64,000 nucleotides of DNA from Nitrospirota bacterium. GTDB taxonomy: Bacteria; UBA2233. A model generated the notes under the pieces. The model was given only the letters and a program-made list of their open reading frames with translations, was not told where the DNA came from and made no database searches. The position numbers were made by a program, and so were the translations under genes. Positions 14,231-29,082 of the stretch are shown here, in pieces (the stretch's first letter is position 1; every line of letters begins with the position of its first letter). The stretch is from contig WOZJ01000050.1 of the NCBI GenBank assembly GCA_011620345.1, positions 1-64,000 on the forward strand, in the 5' to 3' direction.

Positions 14231-14306
14231 TCCCCGGTAGCTCAGTCGGTAGAGCGAGTGGCTGTTAACCACTTGGTCGGCGGTTCGAATCCGTCCCGGG
14301 GAGCCA
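14231..14306 (+). tRNA. tRNA-Asn (GTT)
   Basis: TCCCCGG acceptor stem pairing with CCGGGGA-G-CCA, D-arm AGCTCAGTCGGTAGAGC, anticodon loop CTGTTAA, T-loop GGTTCGAATCC. Confidence 0.98.
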
Positions 14307-14699
14307 AAAAATCATCCGCCGATTTCCCCATTCAACTCACACGTTGCACGACGGGCATATCGCCTATTCAAGAGGCGACGGCCAGGTTTTACCTTGTAGT
14401 CGTTGCCGTAGGGCTGGCTCAGAAGTCAGGGTCGCAGGCTCGAATACTCTTTTGTGGAGCAGCAGTTGACAGAGGCAATGAGGATTGATAATCTCAAAAG
14501 GAGTGTTATAATACTATATTATAAAGTAATTTAACGAGACTGTTGACCAAAATAATGTCCGTTACAATTTTAATCCCACAACATCGACGATTCTTGAAGA
14601 AGTCTGAGGCTTTGCGCATGTTTTCATAACAAGATTAAGCTTTATGAACAAACCGAGTTCAATACTCCCGCCTAGGCTCTTTAACCAAGAGGTAAAGCC

Positions 14700-15806
14700 A
14701 TGATCCCCGTAGAGAATCTCGATCAAAGAAGGTACCGCTTAGCGTACCAGGGGGATGCCAAGCAAGGGAATTCGCGTGCCCTGCCTCCTGGTGCCCTGGA
14801 AAAGCTCGAGAAGACGCTTGTCGGCAAAAGCGCCGCTATGAGGGAATTAAAGGCAAACATCCTTAAGCTTTGCCGCCACGATACGACAGTCCTAATTCAA
14901 GGAGAGAGCGGAACGGGCAAGGAGCTTGTCGCTAACATGCTCCATGCGCTGTCCCCCAGGTTTCAAAAGAAGTTTGTCGCGATCAACTGTGCGGCCATGC
15001 CCGAGCAGCTCCTTGAAGCCTTGCTGTTTGGCTACGAGAGAGGGTCGTTTACGGGCGCTGACCGCCAGACAAAAGGCTACCTGGACAATGCCAGCGGGGG
15101 GACGTTGTTCCTCGATGAAATCTCCGAGACCTCCGCCTCGCTTCAGGCAAAGCTCTTGAGAGTGTTGCAGGAGAGGGCCTTCTACAGGTTAGGCGGGCAC
15201 GAGTTAATTCCTGCGGACGTCAGAATCCTTTCTGCCACCAACATGGACCTCCGGGCGTTGGTCGACAAGGGGGAGTTTCGTTGCGATCTCTTCTACCGGC
15301 TCAATGTCGTCAAGGTTGCAACCCCACCCTTGAGGGTACGAAAAGAGGATATTCCCGAGTTGGCCTTGCACTTCTTGCAGGATGTTAGGGAGAACTTGAA
15401 CGGCGAGATTCCGGCGGTAGGTTTCTCGGATTCTGCCATGGCAATGCTGATGAACTACGTTTGGCCGGGCAATGCCAGGGAGCTTCGCAACGCCATCGAG
15501 CACGCCGCGATCTTCGCTCAGTCTGCCCTGATCGAGCCAGGGGATTTCCCCAGGCTGAATGAGGACGACAGGGCCACAATGAAAACACGAGGTTTTTCTT
15601 CAGAAAGGTCGGGTGTCTCTGTTGAGGGCTTAACCGCGGTCGATTTGCGCGAAGCACGCAGACGATTCGAGGAAGACTATTTCCTGGAGCTTTACCGCAA
15701 GACCGGTCACGACCTGAAGGAGGTTGCTAGGCGGGCCGGCGTGGACTTGGCGACCGTCTACCGGAAGTTTGGCTACCTGAGAAAAGCGGATCCCGCTAAC
15801 GAATAA
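14700..15806 (+). CDS. Sigma54-dependent enhancer-binding protein (AAA+ and HTH) lacking an N-terminal sensor domain
   Basis: GESGTGKE, INCAA, GSFTGA, LFLDEI, DLFYRL, WPGN.REL, C-terminal HTH (VARRAGVDLATVYRK). Only about 37 aa precede the AAA+ domain. Confidence 0.93.
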   Translation: MIPVENLDQRRYRLAYQGDAKQGNSRALPPGALEKLEKTLVGKSAAMRELKANILKLCRHDTTVLIQGESGTGKELVANMLHALSPRFQKKFVAINCAAMPEQLLEALLFGYERGSFTGADRQTKGYLDNASGGTLFLDEISETSASLQAKLLRVLQERAFYRLGGHELIPADVRILSATNMDLRALVDKGEFRCDLFYRLNVVKVATPPLRVRKEDIPELALHFLQDVRENLNGEIPAVGFSDSAMAMLMNYVWPGNARELRNAIEHAAIFAQSALIEPGDFPRLNEDDRATMKTRGFSSERSGVSVEGLTAVDLREARRRFEEDYFLELYRKTGHDLKEVARRAGVDLATVYRKFGYLRKADPANE

Positions 15807-15825
15807 CCGGGAGAGGCAAGTCCTT

Positions 15826-17442
15826 ATGGACTCCAGGTATCAGTGCACAGGGATACGTCCCGAGAGGTCGTTGCAGCGCCATAATGGGAGCATGCGTATC
15901 CTATTAGGAGCCATTGAGCTCCATGCCAAGAACAACCCAAACAAGGTGATGCTGGCCACAGAAGGGACCCGTGTAACATACAAAGAATGTTTTGAAAAAA
16001 TAGGCAGGCTTTCTGCCGCGCTCGAAGGTATTGGTCTTAAGATGGGTGAGAGGCTTGCCTTGGTCCTTCAGAACCAACGCGAGTTTATCGAAAGCTATCT
16101 CGCCTGCATGTTTATGGGCGTGATTCCCGTAGTTATCGGCGAAAGGACATTGGGCGAGGATATTGCAGGCATCCTTGCCAGCACGAAGCCAAAAGCCCTT
16201 ATTGTCGGCCGGTCGCGGTGCTCCTTTGTCAAAGACGCGTGCAGACGGGCGGGCCTGAAAGAAGGTGCGTATTGCGGCGTTGTAACCGGCGATCAGCAAG
16301 TAGACGGCTTCGTGGCCTACGAAAGGCTCTTATCCCGTTATGCCCCCTGCAAGGATCCCCTTACGCAGGGGGGTGCCGTTCCTCTCTTCTATACGGCCGG
16401 CACGACGGGGACACCAAAGGGGGTTTACAGGACGAGCTGGAACGAGGGACTGGTTTCATTTATTCTGTCTTCACTCGTTGAGTTTGGTTTTCATTCCCAG
16501 GAGCGCCATTTGGTACTCTGTCCGCTCTACCACAGCGCGCCGTTCTTCTTTTCCATGCTTACTCTGGCGATCGGCGGGACGCTCACGCTCTTGCCCCGCT
16601 TCGAGCCTGCTTTATTCCTAGAGCTCCTTAGAAAAGAGCGCATTACCAGCGCCTACGTACACCCGAACATGCTTACCGGGCTTCTTTCCCTCCCTGAAAA
16701 GCTAAAGCGCGCCTACAAAGACCTTCCCGACCTTCGTATTATCATCTGTGCTGGCGCCCCGCTCTTCCCGGAGACCAAAGAAGGCGTCATCAACTGGCTG
16801 GGCGATAAGCTCTCAGAGTTCTACGGCTCGACGGAGGCCGGGATCAACCTCTACATGCCCCCAGGCGAGATGCGCCGACACATCACGGCCTGCGGCAGGC
16901 CCTTCCCCGGCAACGAGCTCAAGATTATAGACGAGAACGGCAACGAGTGTCCCCCCGGCGTGCCAGGCAGCCTGTTCATCAGGAACCCATGGATGGCTGA
17001 TGCCTACTACAAGGACGAAGAGTCCACAAGGAAGGCCTTCAAGGATGGGTTCGCCCAGTTTGGAGACTTGATGGTCAAGGACCAAGAAGGCTACTACGCG
17101 TTCATCGAGCACGAATCCAATGTCGTTTCTTTGTCCAAGGGAGACGTGTATCCGTACGAAATCGAGCGGGCTCTTCGCCTTCATCCGGGAGTCCTGGATG
17201 CGGCCGTTTTTGGGGTTCCGGGTTTAAAGCAAACGCAGCGGGTGGTGGCCTTCGTTGTCCTAAAGCCTGGCGTAGCGGTGAGCGAAGGGGATCTGTTGGC
17301 TTTCCTGGGTGAGCGGCTTGAGGGCTTTAAAGTCCCGCAAGAGGTCGTCTTTGTGCAAGAGGTCCCAAGAAACCCTGAAGGGAAGGCTCTCAAAAACAAA
17401 ATGCGGCAGTCATGGCTTGAGATGTGTACTGGACTTACATAG
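15826..17442 (+). CDS. Acyl-CoA ligase paralog A (AMP-binding) with degenerate A8 hinge
   Basis: YTAGTTGTPKG, PLYHSAP, YGSTE, GD, PRNPEGK. The hinge reads IEHESNVVSLSKGDVYP instead of VDRKSDMVISGGVNVYP. The start could be 15892. Confidence 0.85.
   Translation: MDSRYQCTGIRPERSLQRHNGSMRILLGAIELHAKNNPNKVMLATEGTRVTYKECFEKIGRLSAALEGIGLKMGERLALVLQNQREFIESYLACMFMGVIPVVIGERTLGEDIAGILASTKPKALIVGRSRCSFVKDACRRAGLKEGAYCGVVTGDQQVDGFVAYERLLSRYAPCKDPLTQGGAVPLFYTAGTTGTPKGVYRTSWNEGLVSFILSSLVEFGFHSQERHLVLCPLYHSAPFFFSMLTLAIGGTLTLLPRFEPALFLELLRKERITSAYVHPNMLTGLLSLPEKLKRAYKDLPDLRIIICAGAPLFPETKEGVINWLGDKLSEFYGSTEAGINLYMPPGEMRRHITACGRPFPGNELKIIDENGNECPPGVPGSLFIRNPWMADAYYKDEESTRKAFKDGFAQFGDLMVKDQEGYYAFIEHESNVVSLSKGDVYPYEIERALRLHPGVLDAAVFGVPGLKQTQRVVAFVVLKPGVAVSEGDLLAFLGERLEGFKVPQEVVFVQEVPRNPEGKALKNKMRQSWLEMCTGLT
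16713..16967 (+). repeat. 255-bp exact inverted repeat, copy 1 (inside ligase A)
   Basis: CTACAAAGACCTTCCCGAC...CCCGGCGTGCCAGG is the exact reverse complement of 19431-19685. The flanks are diverged. Confidence 0.95.
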
Positions 17443-17482
17443 CCTGCTTTGTGCCGCCCAAGCGCAAACCCGTTAGCCTTGA

Positions 17483-17926
17483 GTGGGAATGGCTTGGGCT
17501 AGGAGCATGAATGCCCTCGGAATATGGCGAATGCTGCCTGTAGCGTTCGTTTATGCTGGCCTGGTCGCCCTAGCGGAGCTGACCTTTGGAAACCCGGCCT
17601 TTCCAGCGGCCCTGTGGAGCTTTACGGGGCTTCCCGCTTATTCGTGGAGTGTCCCGGTTCACGCGGCCGGGTTTGTGGTCCTTTTCCTAGCAAACAGGCT
17701 TTTCTTCCGTAAGCCTTTGTATGTGCCCGCTTTGGCAAGCCTTGGCTTCTTTTTTGTTGCCGAGCTGGCCAACCTCGGCGTTTTCCGATATTTTGAGTAT
17801 ACCCAACTCGCACCCTTCGGCCCTTACGCGGCATTCCTTGCCGTTATTCTTCTCTATGCTTTTCTTTGCGCGTTTTGCAGCTTCCTGTTAAGGAAAGTCA
17901 TGGTTGCCATCCCGGTCCGGCGGTAA
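17483..17926 (+). CDS. Hypothetical integral membrane protein (about 4 TM helices)
   Basis: Four hydrophobic segments. It follows ligase A on the same strand. Confidence 0.6.
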   Translation: MGMAWARSMNALGIWRMLPVAFVYAGLVALAELTFGNPAFPAALWSFTGLPAYSWSVPVHAAGFVVLFLANRLFFRKPLYVPALASLGFFFVAELANLGVFRYFEYTQLAPFGPYAAFLAVILLYAFLCAFCSFLLRKVMVAIPVRR

Positions 17927-18008
17927 TGCCATAACCTTTCAGTCCCCATAGGGAGGGACAAGAATGTCCCGCCTATCGGTTGGCATAAGGCTAGCGCTAG
18001 CCCGGGTT

Positions 18009-18968
18009 TTAACGCTTTGCCGAGGCCGTGGCTTGTTGGACGGCTCCGAGGATCTCCTCGCATTGCGGCTTATAGAAGGCCTCGTAGTCAAAGAGATAGT
18101 AGGGGTTTTTCCAGTCAAGAACCTTCCTGCAGTAGACCTGCGCCTTTTGGTTGTCGTGCTCGAGCTTGTAGTACAGCCTTGCGAGCTCACAGTAGGGCAG
18201 TGGGTCATTCGGAATTCTCCTGTGTGCCTCCAAAAGCAGCTCTTCGGCCTTTTGCTTGTCTCCGCCCAGGACTCCAGGGAAGTGCCAAAGCAGGCTTGCC
18301 CTTATGACCGTGACGAGGTAGGCATAATCGTAGCCTTCTTCAGCAGGGGGCTTGACTCTCTTGAAATGCGTTAGCACAAAGTCGATGTCTTTCTCGATCA
18401 CCCTCAGGCGTGGAAGGATTTTGCCGACCGAGAAGACGTTCCGTAGCATGCTTTTCCCCCCATAATTGGCATCCAAGATCCGCGCGAGGGACGCCGCCCG
18501 GCCAAAGTGGCAGGTAACGCTGTTAGGGTCTTTTTTGAGCCCCCTTTCGGCGCACTCTGCGGCCGTTGTGTAGCTTTTGACAGCCTTAGCCTTATCGTGC
18601 TCCCGAACGAAGGCGAACTCTCCCTCTTTGAAGTAGGTAAACCCTATGAGGTAATCGATGTCGGCATCGTTTGGGTCGAGCTTCTGTGCTTCAAGAAAAA
18701 GAGTTCTTGCCTTTTTAAGGGCCGATCGGTCCTTGTGCATTTCCATGGAGGCTATCCAGCCCCTATGTTTGAGCCCCTCGGCCGAAGAGGCGTTGGCGTA
18801 CGGCTGGAAGGCCATCAGGCACATCAAAGCCGTGAAGCCGTAGCAAAGGCACAAGCGGATCACGCAACCCCTCGTTATCTTATGTTGCCCATTCTTTTTG
18901 ACACCCAAACGGCTTTCATTCTTGGCTAAAGAATGTTGGCTGTGCTTGAAACTTTCAGTACTGGTCAT
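18009..18968 (-). CDS. Exported TPR-repeat protein, last gene of the TPAT operon
   Basis: ATGA overlap with the ligase B stop and an AAGGAG RBS. Signal-like segment ending AFQPYANA. TPR helices (LDPNDA..DY.IG..Y; PGVLGGDKQKAEELL). Confidence 0.75.
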   Translation of the reverse strand: MTSTESFKHSQHSLAKNESRLGVKKNGQHKITRGCVIRLCLCYGFTALMCLMAFQPYANASSAEGLKHRGWIASMEMHKDRSALKKARTLFLEAQKLDPNDADIDYLIGFTYFKEGEFAFVREHDKAKAVKSYTTAAECAERGLKKDPNSVTCHFGRAASLARILDANYGGKSMLRNVFSVGKILPRLRVIEKDIDFVLTHFKRVKPPAEEGYDYAYLVTVIRASLLWHFPGVLGGDKQKAEELLLEAHRRIPNDPLPYCELARLYYKLEHDNQKAQVYCRKVLDWKNPYYLFDYEAFYKPQCEEILGAVQQATASAKR

Positions 18969-20503
18969 GCGTGCTCCTTGATCCATGCCTCCTTGAGTTG
19001 CGTTTTGAGCGTTTTACCCTGCGGGTTGCGCGGAATTTCATTGACGACCGCGACCTCTTTGGGAACCTTGTAATCGGCAAGCCGTTCTTTCAAAAAGCCC
19101 ACCAATTCTTCCTTGGTAAGAGTCTGCCCAGCTTGCGGGACTACGACGGCGGCCACTCGCTCCCCCCAGTAAGCATCCGGCACACCGATTACGGCCGCAT
19201 CGTAGACCTTTGGGTGAAGCATTATCACCTGCTCGATTTCGACGGGGTACACGTTGACGCCGCCCGAAATCACCATGTCAGACTTGCGGTCCACGATGGT
19301 GTAGTAGCCTTCCTCGTCTTTGATGGCCACGTCGCCCACCGAGATGAATCCATCGCGGAACACCTTCTTTGTTCCTTCCTCGTCCTTGTAGTAGGCATCG
19401 ATCATCCAGGGGTTCTTCATAAAAAGCTCTCCTGGCACGCCGGGGGGACACTCGTTGCCGTTCTCGTCTATAATCTTGAGCTCGTTGCCGGGGAAGGGCC
19501 TGCCGCAGGCCGTGATGTGTCGGCGCATCTCGCCTGGGGGCATGTAGAGGTTGATCCCGGCCTCCGTCGAGCCGTAGAACTCTGAGAGCTTATCGCCCAG
19601 CCAGTTGATGACGCCTTCTTTGGTCTCCGGGAAGAGCGGGGCGCCAGCACAGATGATAATACGAAGGTCGGGAAGGTCTTTGTAGTCCTGCTTGATGCCC
19701 TCAGGAAGGGCCAGCAGGCCGTTCAGCACCGTGGGGACGACGAACGTGCTCGTGGTGCGCTGTTCTTTTAAGAGCTTTAGCATCCCTTCGGGTTCGAAGT
19801 GGCGCATCAAAACAAGCGTTCCGCCTACGGCGAGCGTGAGCGTGGCAAACAAAAAAGGCGCGCTGTGGTACAAGGGGCATACGGCCAAATGGCGCTCGTC
19901 GGAGGTATAGCCATACTCTGAGATGGCGTTCATCACCAAAAAAACGTTGCCTTCAGACATTTTCTCCCTGAAGGCGCCCTTTGGCCTGCCTGTCGTGCCC
20001 GAGGTGTAGATCATCGGGGCCGAGCCCTCTTCGGCCAGCGTGTCCAAAGACGGCGGGTTGGAGGCGATGAAATCCTCGTAGGCGACAAAGTCCTTGGAAC
20101 GCTCCTTGCCCGTTACGATCATCCCGCCATCCAAGAAGTGGTAGGCCTTCCCCTGGACTTCCTCGACGCGCTCCATAAGCGTCCTGTCGACGACGACCGC
20201 CTTGGGCGCGGCGTTCGTAAGGATGTGGACGAGCTCATCGCCCCTTAGCTTGTAGCCCACGAACACGGGCGTTACCCCCATGAGCATGCAGGCCAAGTAC
20301 GTCTCGACGTACTCCGGCTGGTTGTACATCATGAGCGCAAGCCTGTCGCCTTGCTTGAGCCCGAGCCCATTGAAGCCGTTGATAAGGCTCCCGATGCGGT
20401 CAAACCCTTCCTTATAGGTGATACTCCTGCCATCCCCTACGAGCATTTCTTTTGTAGGGCTGGTTTTTGCGTACATGAGGAGCATGTCTGTCAAGCCTGG
20501 CAT
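18965..20503 (-). CDS. Long-chain/aryl acyl-CoA ligase paralog B (canonical motifs)
   Basis: YTSGTTGRPKG, PLYHSAP, YGSTE, GD, VDRKSDMVISGGVNVYP.EIE, PRNPQGK. Confidence 0.92.
   Translation of the reverse strand: MPGLTDMLLMYAKTSPTKEMLVGDGRSITYKEGFDRIGSLINGFNGLGLKQGDRLALMMYNQPEYVETYLACMLMGVTPVFVGYKLRGDELVHILTNAAPKAVVVDRTLMERVEEVQGKAYHFLDGGMIVTGKERSKDFVAYEDFIASNPPSLDTLAEEGSAPMIYTSGTTGRPKGAFREKMSEGNVFLVMNAISEYGYTSDERHLAVCPLYHSAPFLFATLTLAVGGTLVLMRHFEPEGMLKLLKEQRTTSTFVVPTVLNGLLALPEGIKQDYKDLPDLRIIICAGAPLFPETKEGVINWLGDKLSEFYGSTEAGINLYMPPGEMRRHITACGRPFPGNELKIIDENGNECPPGVPGELFMKNPWMIDAYYKDEEGTKKVFRDGFISVGDVAIKDEEGYYTIVDRKSDMVISGGVNVYPVEIEQVIMLHPKVYDAAVIGVPDAYWGERVAAVVVPQAGQTLTKEELVGFLKERLADYKVPKEVAVVNEIPRNPQGKTLKTQLKEAWIKEHA
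19431..19685 (-). repeat. 255-bp exact inverted repeat, copy 2 (inside ligase B)
   Basis: Reverse complement of 16713-16967. It also produces the identical 60-aa shadow ORFs at 16748 (+) and 19468 (-). Confidence 0.95.
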
Positions 20504-20542: not shown

Positions 20543-21418
20543 TTAGAAAAACTTATTTTTATTATTCTTGAGCCAAAGCGCCTTTCTCTTCGAAATATCG
20601 TTGGCCAACTGCATTTCTGGCATCACATTGGCAGGGGTTTTGAGGACGAAATCGATGGTCTTGTCGAAGAGCGCTTCATCGTACACCCCTGTAGCGTAAT
20701 ACCGTGCATAGAAAACATGGGCCAGCAAAAATTTGTTTTCTGTTTTTTTGAAGGCAACAGCGAACTCATTCTTAGCCTTTTCTGTGCCACCGCCGAGCAT
20801 GGGACCCGCAATGATGGCGTAGGCCCCCTGAAAAAGGTGGGGGGCATAATTAAAGTAGGTTTCATCGAGAACAATAAGGCGATCAAACGTGTGCGTGGCG
20901 TCCCCGATACCGATCAGGATGTTGGGGTCATCCATTTCGAGCATGACCCTAAGACCTGCATTCAACCCGTACCAGAAGGCCGCAGGGACATCGCCCTTTT
21001 TGAGGTACTGGGCCAAATCGATCATGTGCTTGCCCGTTTCAAGCCCTTTACGGATTTCTCGATTGCGTACCTTAAGCGCCCTAAGGCCGTAATCCCTGCC
21101 GATTTCGTAGATCTCCGCCGCAAAATTCGGGTCTTCCCACTCGAGAATAAGACCCCAGGCCGCATAGGCCTCTGAAGCAATCGCAAGCAGCTTGTCGTTG
21201 TTTGGTGAAAACTCGACGAGTGCCGAGATGAGCAGGGCGTTGCCTGGAAGGCCCTCTTTAGCCACTGATGCGCTTTGAAAGCCCATCAGATTATCCACGG
21301 TGTGCTTGAGCACGGGTTGAAGAGTGTCTACCCCTTTTCGTTCGACAAAAGAGCAGCTCGAAAGAAGCGCGGCAACGGAAACTGCCCAAACGACGCCAAC
21401 AAAACGATGTCTACTCAT
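20543..21418 (-). CDS. TRAP transporter T component (TatT) lipoprotein
   Basis: Lipobox LLSSC. Motifs PMLGGG.EKAK..F, LLAHVFYARYYA, L.N.I.K.KA. Located in the TRAP operon. Confidence 0.85.
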   Translation of the reverse strand: MSRHRFVGVVWAVSVAALLSSCSFVERKGVDTLQPVLKHTVDNLMGFQSASVAKEGLPGNALLISALVEFSPNNDKLLAIASEAYAAWGLILEWEDPNFAAEIYEIGRDYGLRALKVRNREIRKGLETGKHMIDLAQYLKKGDVPAAFWYGLNAGLRVMLEMDDPNILIGIGDATHTFDRLIVLDETYFNYAPHLFQGAYAIIAGPMLGGGTEKAKNEFAVAFKKTENKFLLAHVFYARYYATGVYDEALFDKTIDFVLKTPANVMPEMQLANDISKRKALWLKNNKNKFF

Positions 21419-21447
21419 GTGGCTGTATCCCTTTAGTTCTAAATAGA

Positions 21448-22764
21448 TCAGACTCCAGACCAAGACGATCCTAAGGGAATCAACTCCTTATTCATTCCTA
21501 GGGCCGTCGGGAGCCAAAGGGTAAGGTCCGGCCAATAGGCGATGAGGATAAGCCCAAGGGCTTGGACCAAAAGCCGTGGAACAACGGCTCTAAACAAAAC
21601 CTCAAGCGGCTCCCTGAAGCGGAACGCTCCGATAAAGAGGTTAAAGCCAATCGGGGGTGTCGAATAGCCCAATTCCAGGTTCCAAAGAAAGATGATGCAG
21701 AAATGGACCGGGTCTATCCCGTAGCCTGTCGCTACGGGGAGAAGGAGCGGGACCATTACGAGGATGGCGCTGAAAACGTCCATCAGGCAACCCGTAATCA
21801 AAAGGATAAGATTCAAAAAGAGCAAAAAGACAAGCCTGCTCTTGATAACCCTGAGTAAGAATTCGAGGAAATGCTGGGGGATCTGCTGGTCGATCAGGAA
21901 GTTCGAGAAGGTGAGCGCGGAGACAAGAATGGCGAAGATCGCCCCGACAAGGACTAGGCTTTCCGTCCCCGCCTCAGTGACCTTAGAGATCGTAACCTCC
22001 CTTCGGATAAGAACCTGAGTGATAAAGATGTAGAGGAGACTTATGATGGCCACCTCGGGAACGCTCATCCAGCCGGCGAAAATTGCGACGATGATGAAGA
22101 ATGGGAGCGGGGCCTCCAAGGCCACGGCCTTCAGCGAAGCGATGGCGGGTTTCCATTGAAAGGGGGAAGAGGGAATTCCAGCACGGTAAGCATGGATGAT
22201 GCAGTAGACGATGTATATCGCCGTGAACACAATCCCCGGCAAAAGGCCCGCAACGTAGAGTTCGTCTGTCGCCTGGTAGGAGATGAAGCCGATCACGATG
22301 ATGGGCAGGCTTGGTGGAAAGAGCATGCCTTGCCCGCCGCAAACCGTGCAGGTCCCCAGGGCGAAGTTTTTATCGTAACCCGACTTCATGAGGGCGCTGT
22401 AATAAATTCCCCCGAGCGCCATGACGGCCAGGGCCGAACCCCCAGTGAGGGCGCTGAAGACGGTGTAAGCGATGACAGTGGCAATCGCCAACCCACCTGG
22501 CAGCCAACCAAGCCAGTGATTGGACAAATCGGCCAGCCTCTGGGAAGCCTTTGAGTAACTCAGGATATAACCCATGAATGTGAAGATCGGAAGGGCCAAG
22601 AGGCCAGGGGCCTCCATCACGATCTTGACCTGAGTGATCATCGCCTGGAGAGGGACATGGGCGACCTCGGCGAAATAAAGCGCAGCCAAAAGCCCAAGTA
22701 CGGCCAAAAGGGGAGTCCCGATTAAGGCCGAAAGCAAGATGCCCGAAGCGAGAGCAGTAACCAT
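21448..22764 (-). CDS. dctM: TRAP transporter large permease DctM
   Basis: LALPIF, GWLPGGLA, PPSLP, IDPVHF, ELGY.TPP.G.NLF. Confidence 0.92.
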   Translation of the reverse strand: MVTALASGILLSALIGTPLLAVLGLLAALYFAEVAHVPLQAMITQVKIVMEAPGLLALPIFTFMGYILSYSKASQRLADLSNHWLGWLPGGLAIATVIAYTVFSALTGGSALAVMALGGIYYSALMKSGYDKNFALGTCTVCGGQGMLFPPSLPIIVIGFISYQATDELYVAGLLPGIVFTAIYIVYCIIHAYRAGIPSSPFQWKPAIASLKAVALEAPLPFFIIVAIFAGWMSVPEVAIISLLYIFITQVLIRREVTISKVTEAGTESLVLVGAIFAILVSALTFSNFLIDQQIPQHFLEFLLRVIKSRLVFLLFLNLILLITGCLMDVFSAILVMVPLLLPVATGYGIDPVHFCIIFLWNLELGYSTPPIGFNLFIGAFRFREPLEVLFRAVVPRLLVQALGLILIAYWPDLTLWLPTALGMNKELIPLGSSWSGV

Positions 22765-22774
22765 GCTAAGCCTC

Positions 22775-23320
22775 CTAGGCCTTTAAAAGGGCGGTTAGGG
22801 CCATACGTAAGGCACTCGAGGCGTAAAAATAAAAGACTACGAGGTAAAAGGGCCAGGTGGGATAGTCGTAGTACGTCGATCGGTCTCCCGTGCGGATCAA
22901 CGTTTGCAGGTACTCAAACGTGGCATAGGTAAAGATGGCGAAGACCAAACACGCCATGAGGTAGGCCACGATCCTGACCGCCTTCTTCAAGGTAGGGTTT
23001 TTGATGTACCGGACGATGTCAATCCTGAAGTGCTCAAGTCTTGTCGTGGCAAGGCAGGCCCCGAGAAAACCCGACCAGAGCATACTGTACTTCACCATGT
23101 CCCCCATCCAAATGTAGCCGACAGAGAAGAATGCCCGTAAAAACCACTGGAGAAAGGCGCCGGTGCAAAGGAGGATGAGAAAAAACAACATCAGCGCTCT
23201 TTCGATGAATAAAAACCTCTCATTGGCTTTCTGGAGCCATCCCTTCCAACCGCCCAGCTTGGCATAGCGAGGTCTGCTGAAGTTGAGGTTTTCTTGATTG
23301 GATAGAGCTTCCTGCACCAT
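22775..23320 (-). CDS. dctQ: TRAP transporter small permease DctQ
   Basis: Four TM helices, LW.GFLGA.LA....HFRID motif, located between dctP and dctM. Confidence 0.85.
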   Translation of the reverse strand: MVQEALSNQENLNFSRPRYAKLGGWKGWLQKANERFLFIERALMLFFLILLCTGAFLQWFLRAFFSVGYIWMGDMVKYSMLWSGFLGACLATTRLEHFRIDIVRYIKNPTLKKAVRIVAYLMACLVFAIFTYATFEYLQTLIRTGDRSTYYDYPTWPFYLVVFYFYASSALRMALTALLKA

Positions 23321-23331
23321 GATTGTTTCCT

Positions 23332-24777
23332 CTATTTTTTTTGGAAACCCTTGTACCTTGGGCTCCTTAGGTAGCCCACAATCTCTTGAAGCCTTTGGTT
23401 AAGCGCTTCCTTAGTGCCGTAGAGTTTTTTGATGTCGTTTTTATAAGGAAGAACGTACTTCTCCATTTCTCCTTCAGCCCTGTAGTTCCCGAGCCATGCG
23501 ATAAAAGTGTCTGTCTTTCCTGTCTTGATGATCTCTTCCGAGGCCCCGATGAGGTCGTAAAGCCGCCATTTTTCGATGACATGATCGCTTTCCAGCTTGC
23601 CGAGTTCCTCCTTGGAGCCGGTCTTGATGTAGGTCTCGAGGGCGTCGGCTACCTTTTTTTGCCTTTCCGGAAAGTTCGCGTACGAAGGATCGGCCTCAAA
23701 GATGGCCTTTTCTATGGAGGTATCGTAACCTGCGAGGGCAGCCGATATTTTTTCGTAGGCATCGCGCTTTTCCTTGTCATTGCCCAAATAGGCTACCCTG
23801 TAGGCTAGGCAGGGCTCTTTCCACGCCTTGAGCTCTTCGGGGCTAAGCGAGATCACCTTGGAGCCGTATTTGAGCATCGCCTTGGTAAAGGCCACGGCCC
23901 CGTCGCGCATGGTACCGTTTATGTTCCAGTGAATGAATGGGGTTATAGCAAGGAATGCGATGCGGAAGCCGTTAGGCAGCCTTTCGAACGCCTGCCTGGT
24001 GATCATGGGCGCCGTCATTGACGTCCTTATGGGTGGCTGGACAATGTAAGGGAGAGCCGTGTAAATCTGCATGCCGATGACGAACATGGAGGGTAAGATC
24101 ACGGCATTCGAAAGCCCTGCCTTGAACGAGGGGAACATCTCGGGGGGCTGAATAGGAACCTGTGGAATCCCATGGGCCCTAAAGAACGTATCGTCAGGCC
24201 CGCCCGTGTAGTTGCAAGCTTTGACGTTGTTTTTCAGGGCTTCAGGCGTCCGCCATGAACCTGCCAAATAAAGATCATGGATTCCTTCTGTCAGCTCCAA
24301 GAAGTTTACAAACCCCTTGTCCCAAAGGACATCGTTGAAGTCCTTCATTGCCGTCATGGCCCTGTCAAACTGGCCATAGTCGTTGATCAGGTAGGCCATG
24401 TAGACGACTTCGAGCTTTCTTGAGATCGAGGGTTGGGCGTTGACGGTGGGTGTCACGACATCCAATTGGCCCATCTGGGCCTTCTGGAGCATCTGGTTGT
24501 CATCGCCCATGACACCCCCGTAGTAGGGGATGAACCCTATGTCGTACCCCAAGTTTTTCCCTATGGGTTTGAAGAAATCCTTTTCAACGGATTCCAGGGC
24601 ATTCGTCACGTTTGTCCCTTTAGGCCCCAGAGTCCCAAACTTGAGCCTAATCTTGGGAAGCTCCTGGGAAAAAGCCATACCCTCAAGCCCAACAAGCATT
24701 GAACAAGCCCAACAACTGGCGCAGACAAACGACTTAAGGCCATTTCGCCGAAACCATGCCCTTTTTTGAGAACTCAT
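23332..24777 (-). CDS. dctP: TRAP substrate-binding protein DctP (TatP-like) with a C-terminal extension
   Basis: Signal peptide, LKFGTLGPKGT, YYGGVMGDD.QM..K...GQLD. At 481 aa it is longer than a typical DctP. Confidence 0.85.
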   Translation of the reverse strand: MSSQKRAWFRRNGLKSFVCASCWACSMLVGLEGMAFSQELPKIRLKFGTLGPKGTNVTNALESVEKDFFKPIGKNLGYDIGFIPYYGGVMGDDNQMLQKAQMGQLDVVTPTVNAQPSISRKLEVVYMAYLINDYGQFDRAMTAMKDFNDVLWDKGFVNFLELTEGIHDLYLAGSWRTPEALKNNVKACNYTGGPDDTFFRAHGIPQVPIQPPEMFPSFKAGLSNAVILPSMFVIGMQIYTALPYIVQPPIRTSMTAPMITRQAFERLPNGFRIAFLAITPFIHWNINGTMRDGAVAFTKAMLKYGSKVISLSPEELKAWKEPCLAYRVAYLGNDKEKRDAYEKISAALAGYDTSIEKAIFEADPSYANFPERQKKVADALETYIKTGSKEELGKLESDHVIEKWRLYDLIGASEEIIKTGKTDTFIAWLGNYRAEGEMEKYVLPYKNDIKKLYGTKEALNQRLQEIVGYLRSPRYKGFQKK

Positions 24778-24837
24778 GCCATCTCCCTTTCGCCGCGTTA
24801 ATTAGATTTCACTCGACCCTACCGCCTATAAATACGT

Positions 24838-24853
24838 AGCAAAAACATTGCCA
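24838..24853 (-). promoter_or_regulatory. Sigma54 (-24/-12) promoter for the TPAT-ligase operon
   Basis: Minus strand TGGCAA-TGTTT-TTGCT (GG-N10-GC), about 60 bp upstream of the dctP start. Confidence 0.8.
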
Positions 24854-24924
24854 AGAGAATGCTTCCATAAAACCGCACTTCTTAAGGTAATAACCAAGAT
24901 GGGGACCGGTGACATTTTTGCAGG

Positions 24925-24940
24925 TTTGCAAATTTGCAAA
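24925..24940. promoter_or_regulatory. Candidate enhancer (UAS) palindrome shared by both sigma54 promoters
   Basis: Perfect palindrome TTTGCAAATTTGCAAA within a run of TGCA units, centred about 80 bp from each -24/-12 element. Confidence 0.6.
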
Positions 24941-25015
24941 TGCGTGCCTGCATCGACTCCTTATGATTTTTAGAAGAAAGGCAGGATTTATCGTTATTTT
25001 CGTCCTAAATTAAGA

Positions 25016-25031
25016 TGGCACGGTGATTGCT
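25016..25031 (+). promoter_or_regulatory. Sigma54 (-24/-12) promoter for the flavoprotein operon
   Basis: TGGCAC-GGTGA-TTGCT, a perfect match to the consensus. Confidence 0.88.
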
Positions 25032-25085
25032 ATCCATATATAGCAGGAATGGTTTGACATGATGATCCAATACCGAGGGACTAAA

Positions 25086-26801
25086 ATGGCAAAGCTTCAC
25101 TATGACATCGTGATCGTAGGCGGTGGGCCGAACGGGCTTGCCGCGGCGGCCTACCTGGCCAAGTGCGGGCTTAGTGTTTGTATCCTTGAAGAAAGGCTAG
25201 AGGCCGGAGGGGGAGCAGAAAACACCGAACCAATCCCCGGCTGCCGGATCGATCCTCATGCCACCTACCTCTACGGAGCATACGCGCCCGGGTTCGATCA
25301 GCTCGAGCTGGACAAGTTCGGTTTTCGGATGAGCCATGCCAGGAATTTCGGTGGGGTCGTCAACTACGATGGCACGGGGACTGCGGCCGGTCTGTACAAC
25401 ATAGAGTATACGCTAGAACAAATAAAAAAGCGCTCGCCGAAAACGGCGGAAACGTTCCGCTACCTTTACGACAACCTCTTTACCCCAAAGAACCTGGGGA
25501 ATTTCTTGCGCTCAATCTACTGGACGCCGCCCCCGCCTGTGGGGATGCCCATGGACAAGAGCGATTACCCATGGTCGCAAGTGCTCAAAAAGCTCTTGCC
25601 CGGTCTCTACGACGATGTCTGGAACGATTTCAGCGGGTTCGAGCTTATGGATGCCTTATGGGATTGGGAGCCCCTTACCGCTGCCCTTGGTCTGGCAAGC
25701 TGGTACAACGGGCCCCATCCGATGTGGAAAGGGGTCGGCATTCAGGCATTTGCCTGCAATCTTTTAATGCTGGGCAGCAATGGGGTCCCAAGGGGCGGCA
25801 TGCATTCCTACATGCACGCCCTGATAAGGTGCGCCATGTTCCACGGGGCCAAGCTTATCACGAACTGCAAGGTCGAGGAGATCCTCGTCGAAGACGGCGA
25901 GGCCAAAGGGGTCAGGCTCGCAGAAACCTCCCCCCTGGGAAACAGAACTATTTGGGCGGACAAGGCCGTCATCGCGAACACCCATATCAAGCAAACCTTC
26001 CTCGATCTAGTCCCCAAAAGGCACCTTGACCAGGATTTCGTCCAAAAAATCAAAGACATCAACCTCAACGGCGGCAGCCTCTACGTCATGCACCTCGTTT
26101 GCAAGGAGCTGCCCAAGTACGTAGGGGAACAAGGTGAGATTATGAAAGGCAAGAACTACCCGATTGCCTTGGTTGGACCCTGCGACAGCCGAGAGTATCT
26201 CATCAACCAAACGATCGACGTGTACTCGCACCGTACCCACCCTCTAAGGAAAGAGAGCATGACGTTCGTCATCGGTCAACACGACATCATTGACCCGAGT
26301 AGGGCGGGGGGCGATCTGTTTGTCGTTTCTCCGATTTACCTGCAGATGCCGCCTCCGGAATACCACAGAGACGGACCAAACGCTGTCAATAAGGCAAAAG
26401 ACGAGATCAACCACGCGATTCTCGGCGCAATCAGAGAAATGGCCCCGAACATGACGGAGGACAATATTGTTCATATGTTCGTGAACACGCCGGAGGATTC
26501 CTCGTTCAGAAACCTCGGGTTTGTCGGGGGAAACTGGTACGGAACGCGTCATGATCGAGACCAGTGGTGGGAAAAAAGGCCGCTACCCGAGCTTTCCAGG
26601 TATCGGACGCCGGTTGACAAGCTCTATCTTTGCAACCAAAGCTCCTACCCCGGCGGGCTGTGCTTGATGGCCGTACCCTACAACTTGATGCACGTCTTGA
26701 TCGAGGACGGGATCGCAAAACCGGGAGAATGGTGGTACCCATCGCCTTGGTACATTCCGGAATCTGAGGCGAGGTATTCTCGTTCTAAGGTTCCTGCATA
26801 A
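25086..26801 (+). CDS. COG1233 FAD oxidoreductase (phytoene desaturase superfamily), alpha-type subunit 1
   Basis: IVGGGPNGL.AA.YLAK.G..V..LE.R.E.GGG, HAT motif, YRTPVDKLYLC..SYPGG. GAGGGA RBS before ATG 25086. Confidence 0.9.
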   Translation: MAKLHYDIVIVGGGPNGLAAAAYLAKCGLSVCILEERLEAGGGAENTEPIPGCRIDPHATYLYGAYAPGFDQLELDKFGFRMSHARNFGGVVNYDGTGTAAGLYNIEYTLEQIKKRSPKTAETFRYLYDNLFTPKNLGNFLRSIYWTPPPPVGMPMDKSDYPWSQVLKKLLPGLYDDVWNDFSGFELMDALWDWEPLTAALGLASWYNGPHPMWKGVGIQAFACNLLMLGSNGVPRGGMHSYMHALIRCAMFHGAKLITNCKVEEILVEDGEAKGVRLAETSPLGNRTIWADKAVIANTHIKQTFLDLVPKRHLDQDFVQKIKDINLNGGSLYVMHLVCKELPKYVGEQGEIMKGKNYPIALVGPCDSREYLINQTIDVYSHRTHPLRKESMTFVIGQHDIIDPSRAGGDLFVVSPIYLQMPPPEYHRDGPNAVNKAKDEINHAILGAIREMAPNMTEDNIVHMFVNTPEDSSFRNLGFVGGNWYGTRHDRDQWWEKRPLPELSRYRTPVDKLYLCNQSSYPGGLCLMAVPYNLMHVLIEDGIAKPGEWWYPSPWYIPESEARYSRSKVPA

Positions 26802-26838
26802 GACTTAAGACCAGTTTAAAGATAGGGAGGTCACGATA

Positions 26839-28512
26839 ATGGCGCAAGTTTTCTCGGAATATGCAGAGTGCTCCGTAAAAAGGCCTGACGATTATCCGCT
26901 TAAGGAGCTCGACAACGTCATTCAGGCGGATGCCGTCGTCATCGGCGGCGGCCCGAACGGACTGATTACGGCGGCCTATTTGGCCAAGGCCGGGGCTAAG
27001 GTTGTCTTGTGCGAGAAACGCTACGAGGTAGGCGGTGGTCTGGCCACGGAAGAGGTCATGTTTCCCTGTTTTTTCGCCAACACGCACGCTACCTACCACA
27101 TGATGGTGGACTACATGCCGCCCATCAGGGATTTTCAGATGGAAGAGCTTGGCCTTCGCTGGATTCGGCCAAACGCGCAGGCGGGGCTTGTGCTCAAGGA
27201 TGGGAGAGGCCTTCTGCTCTCCCACATGCTCGAAGACAGCTGCGACTCGATCCTGAAGTTCTCGAGGGACGACGCCGCCGCGTTTGGGAGGGTTCTCCCC
27301 GAGTTTCATCGGATGGTCGAAGAATTCCTGGCGCCTGCGACCTACTGGCCGCCTGTTCCCCCTGTTGACCTTGCCCAGGCGATGCAGGTTACGGAAGTTG
27401 GCAAGGAACTCGCAGAAATCTCCGAGATGAGCCCGCTCGAGGTGGTGGATCGCTACTTCGACGACAAGCACCTCAAGGCTTTGGTGACCTATATCACCTG
27501 TATGTGGGGGTTGAACCCCAACGAAGGGGGTATGGGTTTTATGGTACCCCTTCTTTTGGACCGAGGGCTGAGTAAGCGCCTCTGTTACGGGGGCTCGCAC
27601 AAGTTCTCCGGAACACTGAGCAAGCAGGTTTACATGAATGGGGGGCTCATCTTAGAGAATGCCGAGGTCACCAAAATTATCATCGAGAACGGCAGGGCTG
27701 TGGGCGTGCAAATGTACGACGGCAGGGAGGTGCGGGCCAAGGTGGTCGCTTCCAGCCTTGATCCCCAGACGAACTTTTTGAAACTGGTGGGCAAGGAGCA
27801 CTTGGACAAGGCGATGATAAGCAACGTGGAGGGGTGGAAGTGGGATAAGTGGAGCCTCTTCACCGTTCATTTGGCGCTTAACGAGCCCCCCAAGTACAGA
27901 ACGGACGACGCCATGATCAACGAGGCCTTCTTGAACGTCCTTGGGGCGGAGACCCAAGACGATGTGCTCGATTATTTTGATTCCGTCCTAGCCGGAAACC
28001 CCACGAACCTCGTGGGCCATGTGAGCTGTGAGACGCTCTACGACCCCACTTACGTGCGCGTGCCCGGCAACAAGCACACGGCCTTCTTCCAGACCCCCGC
28101 CCCCTACGACATCCAGGGCGGCTGGGAAAAGCGCCAAAAAGAGCTCACCAAACAAGCGCTAGAGGTCTGGAGAACCTACGCCCCGAACATAAGCGAGGAA
28201 AACATTATTATGGTGTCCTCCGAGACTCCCTTGGATATCGAGGCACGGATTGCCAACATGGTCCGCGGGTCCTTCAAGCACGGCGATTACAACCCCATAC
28301 AGATGGGGTACTTCAGGCCGAACGACATCTGCTCTGCCTCCAGGACCCCGATCGAGGGAATGTACCTCTGCGGCGCTTCCATGTACCCTGGTGGGCTGAT
28401 TATCGGAGGCCCCGGCTACATCGCGGCCAATACGATCGCTGAAGACATGGGGCTAAAGAAGTGGTGGAAAATTCCAGACAATATTAAAAAATACATCGAG
28501 ACGTACCTTTAA
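26839..28512 (+). CDS. COG1233 FAD oxidoreductase, beta-type subunit 1
   Basis: VIGGGPNGL, GGGLATEE, NTHATYHM, MVRGSFKHG..P.QMGYFRPN, RTPIEG.YLCGAS.YPGG. Confidence 0.9.
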   Translation: MAQVFSEYAECSVKRPDDYPLKELDNVIQADAVVIGGGPNGLITAAYLAKAGAKVVLCEKRYEVGGGLATEEVMFPCFFANTHATYHMMVDYMPPIRDFQMEELGLRWIRPNAQAGLVLKDGRGLLLSHMLEDSCDSILKFSRDDAAAFGRVLPEFHRMVEEFLAPATYWPPVPPVDLAQAMQVTEVGKELAEISEMSPLEVVDRYFDDKHLKALVTYITCMWGLNPNEGGMGFMVPLLLDRGLSKRLCYGGSHKFSGTLSKQVYMNGGLILENAEVTKIIIENGRAVGVQMYDGREVRAKVVASSLDPQTNFLKLVGKEHLDKAMISNVEGWKWDKWSLFTVHLALNEPPKYRTDDAMINEAFLNVLGAETQDDVLDYFDSVLAGNPTNLVGHVSCETLYDPTYVRVPGNKHTAFFQTPAPYDIQGGWEKRQKELTKQALEVWRTYAPNISEENIIMVSSETPLDIEARIANMVRGSFKHGDYNPIQMGYFRPNDICSASRTPIEGMYLCGASMYPGGLIIGGPGYIAANTIAEDMGLKKWWKIPDNIKKYIETYL

Positions 28513-28513
28513 G

Positions 28514-28613
28514 NNNNNNNNNNNNNNNNNNNNNNNNNNNNNNNNNNNNNNNNNNNNNNNNNNNNNNNNNNNNNNNNNNNNNNNNNNNNNNNNNNNNNNN
28601 NNNNNNNNNNNNN
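28514..28613. other. Scaffold gap (100 N)
   Basis: Run of N; the true size is unknown. Confidence 1.
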
Positions 28614-28632
28614 AATAAGGAGGTTAAATAGA

Positions 28633-29016
28633 ATGAAACTTTGGTCTAAAGGTTTAGGTCGAACCGAGCTCGAAATGGACTTCCGCTGCTACGAGGTCGT
28701 CGGCGAGAAGCGCTCGAATGGCAACGGCAGCTCGGGCGAGGGGATCGTTGGCGTGTACGGGACGATCACGACGCCCGTCAACTGGGACTTCCGCGTGGAG
28801 TTTGGACCTGAGGACGTTCCCGGCCTTATCCGAATCGCGCTCACCCCGCCGTTCTTGAAGATGATCTTTAGGAATTTCTTGCTCTACTTCTCGTTCCTTA
28901 AAAACCGGGACCAGTTCCGTCAAGGAAAAAGGGACGAGGTTCTCGCCAAGGTCAAGAAGACGCACGCGACGATGGTCATGGGGGTAAGGAATCGGAGAAG
29001 CGCTGTAGAAGCTTGA
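28633..29016 (+). CDS. Small hypothetical protein embedded in the flavoprotein operon
   Basis: Strong AAGGAGG RBS. MKLWSKGLGRTELEMDF...GTITTPVNWDF. Co-directional with the COG1233 genes. Confidence 0.8.
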   Translation: MKLWSKGLGRTELEMDFRCYEVVGEKRSNGNGSSGEGIVGVYGTITTPVNWDFRVEFGPEDVPGLIRIALTPPFLKMIFRNFLLYFSFLKNRDQFRQGKRDEVLAKVKKTHATMVMGVRNRRSAVEA

Positions 29017-29082
29017 GAACGGCCAGCCGGAAAACGGCTATCGAGAACGTATCTTTGGATTGAAGAAGCAAAGGAGAGTGGA

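What the first reader, a model, noticed from the sequence alone, without database searches (positions are those of the whole stretch)
16713..19685. Exact 255-bp inverted repeat inside two otherwise diverged acyl-CoA ligases (gene conversion or invertible 2.5-kb segment)
Seen: 16713-16967 equals the reverse complement of 19431-19685, including silent positions, while the flanking codons differ heavily. The two genes converge. The block encodes YKDLPDLRIIICAGAPL...YGSTEAG...PPGVPG, part of the adenylate/acyl-binding core. Inference: recent gene conversion, or recombination that inverts 16968-19430. Inversion would be in frame. It would swap the canonical and degenerate C-termini and also swap which downstream gene (TPR protein or membrane protein) ends each operon, giving a switch with no dedicated recombinase. 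An assembly collapse is also possible.
Basis: partly seen in the sequence, partly recalled or inferred. Interest (0 to 1): 0.75.

Follow-up and report, generated by a model that had tools for sequence, protein, structure and literature searches.

The report
Gene-conversion patch in paired CoA ligases
Two facing, long-diverged copies of an acyl-CoA ligase gene keep one 255-base stretch identical because one copy keeps being copied onto the other; this is a clean new example of a known recombination process, with no sign of a DNA flip switch, though the receiving copy looks like a crippled enzyme that may act as a sensor.

Summary
The 255-bp exact inverted repeat is real. It lies mid-gene in two convergent acyl-CoA ligase paralogs, A (15826-17442, +) and B (18965-20503, -), 58% identical elsewhere. 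A sister species keeps the same block homogenised with its own substitutions: 15 sites group the copies by species and 0 by paralog, against 3 and 77 just downstream. Its copies differ at 15 of 212 sites, so assembly collapse cannot explain the pattern. Public-run contigs break at the repeat edges in three studies. Up to three silent differences could be hidden in this assembly. GC3 points to B as donor. Switching is unsupported: 0 of 12 full-length database homologs are chimeric, the sister species has the same A-start/A-end linkage, and no invertase is linked. Orientation could not be tested with reads. Verdict: recurrent intrachromosomal gene conversion, tufA/tufB-like but confined to one tract. 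The scan has reported the same kind of thing in other genomes. The twist: A has lost the CoA-step motif A8, stays under purifying selection, and sits behind a sensorless sigma54 activator. Conversion might keep a pseudoenzyme sensor matched to its enzyme; this is untested.

The parts
16713..16967 (+). Converted tract, copy in ligase A (codons 297-381); probable recipient
   Evidence: Exact match to 19431-19685. GC3 0.80 against 0.63 in A flanks, p=0.0025
19431..19685 (-). Converted tract, copy in ligase B (codons 274-358); probable donor
   Evidence: GC3 0.80 against 0.76 in B flanks, p=0.48
15826..17442 (+). Ligase A, AMP-binding family paralog with degenerate A8 motif; probably defective in the CoA step; start may be the ATG at 15892
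   Evidence: PF00501+PF13193; A8 columns; dN/dS 0.20, 0.08, 0.23 in N part, block, C part; ANL fold
18965..20503 (-). Ligase B, canonical acyl-CoA ligase with intact A3, A5, A7, A8 and A10-type motifs; substrate unknown
   Evidence: no NCBIfam model reaches its cut-off among those shown
16968..19430 (.). 2.46-kb segment between the arms that a crossover would invert; seen only in the reference orientation
   Evidence: in-silico inversion keeps both frames open
17483..17926 (+). 147-aa hydrophobic protein of no Pfam or NCBIfam family, downstream of A
   Evidence: conserved but shorter (133 aa) in L031; Atlas hits uninformative
18009..18986 (-). TPR protein downstream of B
   Evidence: TPR Pfams; same place and strand in L031, 67% nt
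14700..15806 (+). Sigma54 activator with no N-terminal sensor domain, 19 nt upstream of A's longest ORF
   Evidence: Sigma54_activat starts at aa 40; five homologs of 317-368 aa
14485..14512 (+). Sigma70-type promoter-like site (11 of 12, TG) upstream of activator and A
   Evidence: consensus match only (6 sites found, 6.0 expected in the region)
20543..24777 (-). TRAP/TatT uptake genes (dctP, dctQ, dctM, tatT) upstream of B in the same direction
   Evidence: PF03480, PF04290, PF06808, PF16811
24838..24853 (-). Sigma54 -24/-12-like site (GG-N10-GC, 2 mismatches to consensus) upstream of dctP
   Evidence: weak, one of 4 GG-N10-GC matches in the spacer
25016..25031 (+). Exact sigma54 -24/-12 consensus before the FAD-oxidoreductase genes; the only exact match in the assembly

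Best explanation
The repeat is a gene-conversion tract. A and B arose from an old duplication and diverged to about 46% aa identity, but homologous recombination between the two nearby inverted genes keeps copying one stretch, mostly from B into A. Shown: homogenisation of the same block in two species with species-specific substitutions, block-restricted mixing of A and B types across the lineage, and B-like base composition in A's copy. Inferred: the process is RecA-dependent and self-perpetuating, because this stretch is the only long near-identical substrate; it is eased by the apparent lack of MutS1/MutL/NucS mismatch repair; tracts that reach beyond the block are blocked by divergence or removed by selection on A's distinct N part and C-terminal domain; crossover (inverted) products probably arise rarely and are purged, since they would give the transporter operon a ligase with A's A8-less C-terminal domain.
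For: Four-way DNA alignment of A and B from G000 and L031: in the 212 block sites covered by all four, 15 group by species and 0 by paralog; in 16968-17400, 77 by paralog and 3 by species (Fisher p=7e-15). Sister copies: 92.9% identical in block, pS 0.25 against 0.78 downstream. Proteins: six core A rows against six B rows are 84-100% identical in the block, 45-49% in residues 31-296 and 46-54% in 382-530; N and C trees hold the 8 A rows as one clade (100/99), the block tree does not. Relative to outgroups the block is no more conserved than its C flank (44-51% against 47-57% for B0). P0005 (A) and P0007 (B), both listed with a 42199-nt longest contig, alone share K at position 323 among the 15 rows printed. 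GC3 block 0.80, A flanks 0.63, B flanks 0.76; L031's A block 0.76 against 0.64 and 0.60. Near-identical A proteins P0001 and P0002 have T380 where this A and all six full-length B rows have P, so the right edge varies between strains. Contigs end 30 nt inside the repeat edges: 16742 in X1, X4, X5; 19656 in X1, X4; 16938 in X4, X5; 19460 in X1. RecA present; MutS_I, MutL and NucS not found in 2 of 2 genomes, 97% and 93% complete; the one MutS_V hit in G000 is MutS2. Conversion between inverted tuf paralogs is documented in PMC5485169.
Against: The AU test on the 85-residue protein block did not reject an A clade (p=0.144, identical A0/B0 left free), so the protein tree alone is weak. DNA-level support rests on two genomes only; the metagenome scan returned 80 loci, none above 44% identity, and the family holds only 2 genomes. 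The deeper A-type proteins P0011 and P0012 are not homogenised (67-72% in block). X4's in-block depth (32.7) fits a hidden one-copy bubble (32.3) better than two matching copies (37.7); X5 (56.7) fits two matching copies (58.6, against 42.9); X1 is mixed, 37.3 to 13.2; contig depth is a poor copy measure. High GC3 could also come from GC-biased conversion rather than donor direction.
Confidence: 0.88

Rival explanations
1. A recombinase-free invertible switch: RecA crossover between the arms flips 16968-19430 at a biologically used frequency, swapping C-terminal domains and downstream genes between the two operons.
For: Perfect inverted arms 2.46 kb apart; inversion keeps both frames open (535 and 515 aa). 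In Salmonella almost half of tuf conversions selected at one position came with inversion (Hughes 2000 as cited in PMC5485169, passage seen). The two operons appear to have different promoter types. Three independent assemblies or records break within the block (L031 end, P0013 end, Logan contigs), which a mixed orientation would also cause.
Against: 0 of 12 full-length A/B-type database proteins are chimeric. L031 keeps A-start with A-end and the same gene order across about 15% nt divergence. No serine invertase found in G000; the two tyrosine recombinases lie on other contigs. Repeated conversion with no fixed inversion suggests that crossovers are selected against (inference). Repeats break short-read assemblies whether or not they flip.
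Confidence: 0.06
2. Assembly collapse: two merely similar stretches were merged into one sequence by the assembler.
For: MAG with 55-nt contig overlaps. Three silent sites vary in public runs; X4 depth fits a popped bubble and X1 shows both alleles.
Against: Collapse needs near-identity to begin with, while flanks are 58% identical. In L031 the copies differ at 15 of 212 sites yet share 15 species-specific substitutions. Full-length A and B proteins from several sources show the same mixed block. At most it hides about three silent differences (my odds for that: about 0.35), which leaves conversion intact.
Confidence: 0.03
3. Selected co-tuning of a sensor and its enzyme (an extension of the best explanation, not exclusive): A is a CoA-step-dead ligand or adenylate sensor that controls the sensorless sigma54 activator in trans, and conversion of the active-site floor is kept by selection because it matches the sensor to what B handles.
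For: All 8 A-type rows lack the A8 Arg and Gly-Gly, kept in 6 of 6 full-length B rows and 4 of 4 outgroups; in 4-chlorobenzoate:CoA ligase Arg400Ala cuts kcat/Km 100- to 600-fold and Gly409Leu abolishes only the thioester step (PMC6122825 passages). A keeps P-loop, A5, A7 Asp and A10 Lys and is under purifying selection throughout. The activator lacks a sensor domain, and 3 of its 5 homologs share a listed contig length with A or B homologs. Sigma54 sites lie before the catabolic operons. In-trans control of a sensorless activator has precedent in PspF-PspA (PMC3791423 abstract). Block dN/dS is lowest, 0.08.
Against: No binding or activity evidence. P0012 sits, by shared contig length, with a sensorless activator yet is not converted, so conversion is not needed for the pairing. 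A and B still differ beside the A4 histidine (HSAPFFFS against HSAPFLFA), so the pocket is not wholly shared. A neutral self-perpetuating tract explains the data equally well.
Confidence: 0.15
4. Purifying selection or a very recent duplication alone made the block identical.
For: The block holds conserved catalytic motifs.
Against: 81 of 81 synonymous-capable codons are identical; flanks are near saturation at silent sites (pS 0.62-0.68); substitutions are shared by species, not by paralog.
Confidence: 0.01

Closest known systems
tufA/tufB concerted evolution in Salmonella enterica (PMC5485169; abstract, Introduction and passages read)
   Same: Non-reciprocal copying between paralogs on one chromosome; inverted orientation makes inversion a possible by-product; no dedicated recombinase. 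This genome's own tuf pair is also letter-identical.
   Different: tuf genes are homogenised end to end and are functionally redundant. Here only 255 of about 1540 bases are shared, between paralogs 46% identical of which one has lost a catalytic motif, and the lineage appears to lack MutS1/MutL.
Invertons, including intragenic and partly intergenic ones (Chanin et al., PMC10028968; passages read)
   Same: Inverted repeats overlapping coding sequence around a few kb; inversion would recode proteins.
   Different: Defined there by reads in both orientations and described as enzyme-mediated. Here no second orientation was seen, no invertase is linked, and the arms are homologous coding sequence made by conversion.
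Mosaic paralogs with partial conversion (H. pylori babA/babB, Campylobacter flaA/flaB, C. fetus sap inversion; all recalled, not read; one search found no paper)
   Same: Part of each paralog is homogenised while the rest stays distinct.
   Different: Those are surface antigens under diversifying pressure; this is a cytoplasmic metabolic pair with the shared tract in the catalytic core.
PspF-PspA in-trans control of a sensorless sigma54 activator (PMC3791423; abstract read)
   Same: Activator without N-terminal sensor, next to a candidate partner gene.
   Different: The candidate partner here is an ANL-family ligase paralog; no interaction was shown.

Membership tests
Intrachromosomal gene conversion (concerted evolution of paralogs) | [quoted passage not shown] | tested here: met
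   15 species-grouping against 0 paralog-grouping sites; A0-B0 100%, A1-B1 92.9%, orthologs 88-90%
Intrachromosomal gene conversion (concerted evolution of paralogs) | Flanks keep the paralog phylogeny; sharp tract edges | tested here: met
   77 against 3 sites downstream; N and C trees split A from B; sliding windows
Intrachromosomal gene conversion (concerted evolution of paralogs) | Silent sites homogenised beyond what selection gives | tested here: met
   81 of 81 against 85 of 192
Intrachromosomal gene conversion (concerted evolution of paralogs) | Non-reciprocal, with a donor and a recipient | tested here: inconclusive
   GC3 and the T380/P380 edge point to B as donor; GC-biased conversion not excluded; no parent-offspring data
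Intrachromosomal gene conversion (concerted evolution of paralogs) | RecA dependence | not testable with these tools
   recA present in both genomes; no genetics
Inverton / phase-variable invertible segment | Inverted repeats flank the segment | tested here: met
Inverton / phase-variable invertible segment | Both orientations present in reads of one population | not testable with these tools
   All 24 listed runs are kept as contigs; listed contigs break at or inside the repeat and no strand-changing joint is listed
Inverton / phase-variable invertible segment | Opposite orientation found in other strains or species | tested here: not met
   L031 same linkage; 0 of 12 full-length homologs chimeric; hidden cluster members not seen
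Inverton / phase-variable invertible segment | A site-specific invertase acts on the repeats | tested here: not met
   No PF00239 match in G000; PF00589 matches only on C64 and C40; other recombinase families not searched
ANL-family acyl-CoA ligase (protein A) | AMP-binding and AMP-binding_C domains, ANL fold | tested here: met
ANL-family acyl-CoA ligase (protein A) | Motif A8 with hinge Arg and pantetheine-tunnel Gly | tested here: not met
   Absent in 8 of 8 A rows, present in 6 of 6 B rows; roles from PMC6122825, PMC8388817, PMC11253843 passages
ANL-family acyl-CoA ligase (protein A) | CoA thioester formation | not testable with these tools
   Needs an enzyme assay
In-trans regulator of a sensorless sigma54 activator (PspA-like role) | Binds the activator and changes its activity | not tested

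The most novel reading that the evidence does not exclude
A is a pseudoenzyme sensor that binds ATP and the pathway's acid but cannot make the CoA thioester, and controls the adjacent sensorless sigma54 activator. Recurrent B-to-A conversion of the active-site floor is kept by selection because it updates the sensor as the enzyme evolves: gene conversion as a tuning link between an enzyme and its regulator.
Probability: 0.15. Interest if true: 0.78.

Novelty: new member of a known kind. Interest (0 to 1): 0.35.

Why it matters
As it stands: a well-resolved natural case of partial gene conversion that has persisted at the same 85 codons across several lineages of a barely sampled bacterial group that seems to lack canonical mismatch repair. 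It also warns that exact intragenic inverted repeats are often conversion scars, not switches. If the sensor reading held, it would show conversion coupling the specificity of a regulator to its enzyme, and a new way to control sigma54 activators.

Tried and rejected
Collapse as sole cause: rejected. Selection alone: rejected. More DNA loci: the genome-contig scan gave 1 locus; the metagenome scan gave 80 loci, all 44% or less to B, not analysed further; the family search found only G000 and G001. B's N-terminal part and the oxidoreductase gene were not found in G001, whose contig ends inside B's block, so the sister's left tract edge and B-start linkage are unknown. Orientation from runs: four contig sets laid, none bridges the repeat among the 32 pieces shown of 269; X7 runs through A's left edge but has no cover at 19648-19881, so it tells nothing on B. 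Members of the 90% clusters could not be listed, so chimeras hidden inside clusters are not excluded. AU test on the protein block: not significant. Promoter-like site inside the repeat (16953-16924 and 19445-19474): at chance level, 6 found against 6.0, and the hexamer differs in L031; rejected. Profile search of 1.84 billion representatives: one A-type cluster (P0011); the rest of the best 150 are mostly multi-domain giants, so it is uninformative on activator-ligase fusions. Atlas searches named only the general family for A and nothing firm for the 147-aa protein. Literature: no paper in the held library has all of 'gene conversion', 'CoA ligase', 'paralogous', 'inverted repeat'; one search (activator, acyl-CoA synthetase, pseudoenzyme terms, 3 of 5) listed 2 papers that look unrelated by title and abstract start; searches returned nothing. 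The library lacks most subscription journals. No supplements were read.
Full report
Observation. The block 16713-16967 is the exact reverse complement of 19431-19685, with mismatches right outside both ends. It lies in frame in two convergent AMP-binding-family genes, A (15826-17442, +) and B (18965-20503, -). Inside it 81 of 81 identical degenerate residues share the codon; outside only 85 of 192 do, at 58% nt and 47% aa identity. In the whole 1.8-Mb, 72-contig assembly the only other exact repeat of 60 nt or more is the tuf pair.

Surroundings. A follows a sigma54 activator that has no N-terminal sensor domain and precedes a 147-aa hydrophobic protein. B follows dctP, dctQ, dctM and tatT and precedes a TPR protein. 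A sigma70-like site lies before the activator. The assembly's only exact sigma54 consensus is at 25016, before divergent FAD-oxidoreductase genes, and a weaker site faces dctP (the consensus pattern is recalled). These are consensus matches, not shown promoters.

Sister species. One of 40 other genomes searched is of the same genus, G001; locus L031 covers the same contig stretch. It has the same order and orientation at about 85% nt identity, with an insertion between the two downstream genes, and its contig ends inside B's block. In the 212 block sites covered by all four genes, 15 group the copies by species and none by paralog; in the next 433 sites 77 group by paralog and 3 by species (p=7e-15). 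The sister's two copies differ at 15 of those 212 sites, so a collapsed assembly cannot have produced the pattern. This is the standard signature of concerted evolution, with conversion after the two species split in both lineages.

Wider lineage. Protein searches gave 13 close homologs at E<=1e-100 for A: 7 A-type, 5 full-length B-type and 1 partial B that ends inside the block. Six core A rows are 84-100% identical to six B rows in the block but 45-49% before and 46-54% after it. Trees of the N and C parts hold all 8 A rows together; the block tree mixes them. Against this, the AU test on the short protein block does not reject an A clade (p=0.144), and the deeper A-type P0011 and P0012 are only 67-72% identical to B in the block: conversion has lapsed or never run there.

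Direction. The block's GC3 is 0.80, unlike A's flanks (0.63, p=0.0025) and like B's (0.76, p=0.48); the sister's A block shows the same rise. Two A proteins 97-98% identical to this one carry T380, where this A has the B-type P at the tract's right edge. B to A is the simplest reading; GC-biased conversion is not excluded.

Public runs. Twenty of 24 listed runs hold the stretch or part of it, all as contigs. Four runs from four studies were laid; one may be the window's own source. Contigs end 30 nt inside the repeat edges at 16742 (X1, X4, X5), 19656 (X1, X4), 16938 (X4, X5) and 19460 (X1), as a real two-copy repeat gives in a 31-mer graph (for the offsets). Three silent differences from the window occur in the block in X1, X4 and X5. 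Depth arithmetic fits both copies carrying them in X5, one copy in X4, and a mixture in X1. This would fit a conversion still segregating in the species, but contig depth is a poor measure, and it also means that the window's perfect identity may hide up to three silent differences. Contigs cannot show orientation.

Switch? Inversion would be in frame, and in Salmonella conversion between inverted tuf genes often came with inversion at one selected position (PMC5485169, passage citing Hughes 2000). So rare inverted molecules are expected. But no inverted form was found: 0 of 12 full-length homologs are chimeric, and L031 keeps A-start with A-end. No serine invertase was found in G000 and the two tyrosine recombinases are on other contigs. 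Many conversions with no fixed inversion suggest that crossovers are purged (inference): they would give the transporter operon a ligase with A's defective C-terminal domain. Members hidden in the 90% clusters could not be checked.

Mechanism. RecA is present; MutS_I, MutL and NucS were not found in either genome (97% and 93% complete), and G000's one MutS-like gene is MutS2. Loss of mismatch repair would ease exchange between imperfect copies (PMC5485169 reports that repair shortens tracts and lowers frequency; Introduction and section headings). Once a tract is identical it is the only good substrate and renews itself (inference). In the model of A the block spans the strands and helix from about residue 297 to the strand at 381-386 and carries the motif 7, A5 and motif 8 sequences listed in PMC8388817 (passage), that is, the nucleotide-binding floor of the active site.

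The twist. All 8 A rows have replaced the A8 Arg and Gly-Gly that 6 of 6 B rows and 4 of 4 outgroups keep. In 4-chlorobenzoate:CoA ligase the Gly is needed only for the thioester step and the Arg for efficient catalysis (PMC6122825 passages). A is not decaying: dN/dS is 0.20, 0.08 and 0.23 across its parts. Homologs of the sensorless activator share listed contig lengths with A or B homologs in 3 of 5 cases. A may thus be a ligand sensor for the activator, as PspA controls PspF in trans (PMC3791423 abstract), and conversion may keep its pocket matched to B. The first-stage note e1-7289987 raises the sensor idea too; it is not independent evidence. Nothing here shows binding, P0012 is unconverted, and residues beside the A4 histidine still differ between A and B. 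I put the tuning model at 0.15.

Comparison and verdict. The feature meets the tests for intrachromosomal gene conversion and fails those that could be run for an inverton. The scan has noted similar conversion-made inverted repeats in other genomes (unchecked notes). One search found no paper on such a tract in CoA ligases within the held library. It is a new member of a known kind, well supported, with one speculative but testable extension. Interest 0.35.

Noticed in passing
window 14700-17442: Sigma54 activator without a sensor domain directly upstream of an A8-less ligase paralog under purifying selection; the pairing seems conserved in the lineage. Possible pseudoenzyme sensor.
   Followed up: partly
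G000 and G001 genomes: No MutS_I, MutL or NucS match in either genome; G000's single MutS-like gene is MutS2. The lineage may lack known mismatch repair.
   Followed up: partly
window 24778-25058: Divergent promoter region with the assembly's only exact sigma54 consensus (25016-25031, +), a weaker one on the minus strand before dctP, and repeated TTTGCA words near 24917-24941 that could be activator sites.
   Followed up: partly
window 25059-30822: Three tandem phytoene-dehydrogenase-like FAD oxidoreductase genes and a 127-aa unknown, divergent from the TRAP/TatT-ligase operon; none reaches an NCBIfam cut-off among models shown; a scaffold gap lies at 28514-28613. Substrate unknown.
   Followed up: no
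L031 6078-9103: 480-bp, 97% identical direct repeats flank a 2-kb insert between the membrane gene and the TPR gene in the sister species; it holds a 166-aa ORF that looks PIN-like from recall (not scanned).
   Followed up: no
window 17953-17979: Short palindromic element between the convergent operons; 8 copies within 3 mismatches in G000 and many hits in G001. REP-like; label recalled.
   Followed up: partly
G000:C26 165698-166943 and 181963-183208: Two tuf genes identical over 1246 nt, as direct repeats 16 kb apart.
   Followed up: partly
P0003, A residues about 231-252: This A-type protein is more B-like just upstream of the block (56-61% against 50-55% for other core A rows in residues 185-296), perhaps a second small conversion tract.
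   Followed up: no
window 14232-14307: tRNA-like gene (anticodon region GTT, read by eye, not scanned) just upstream of the activator's promoter.
   Followed up: no
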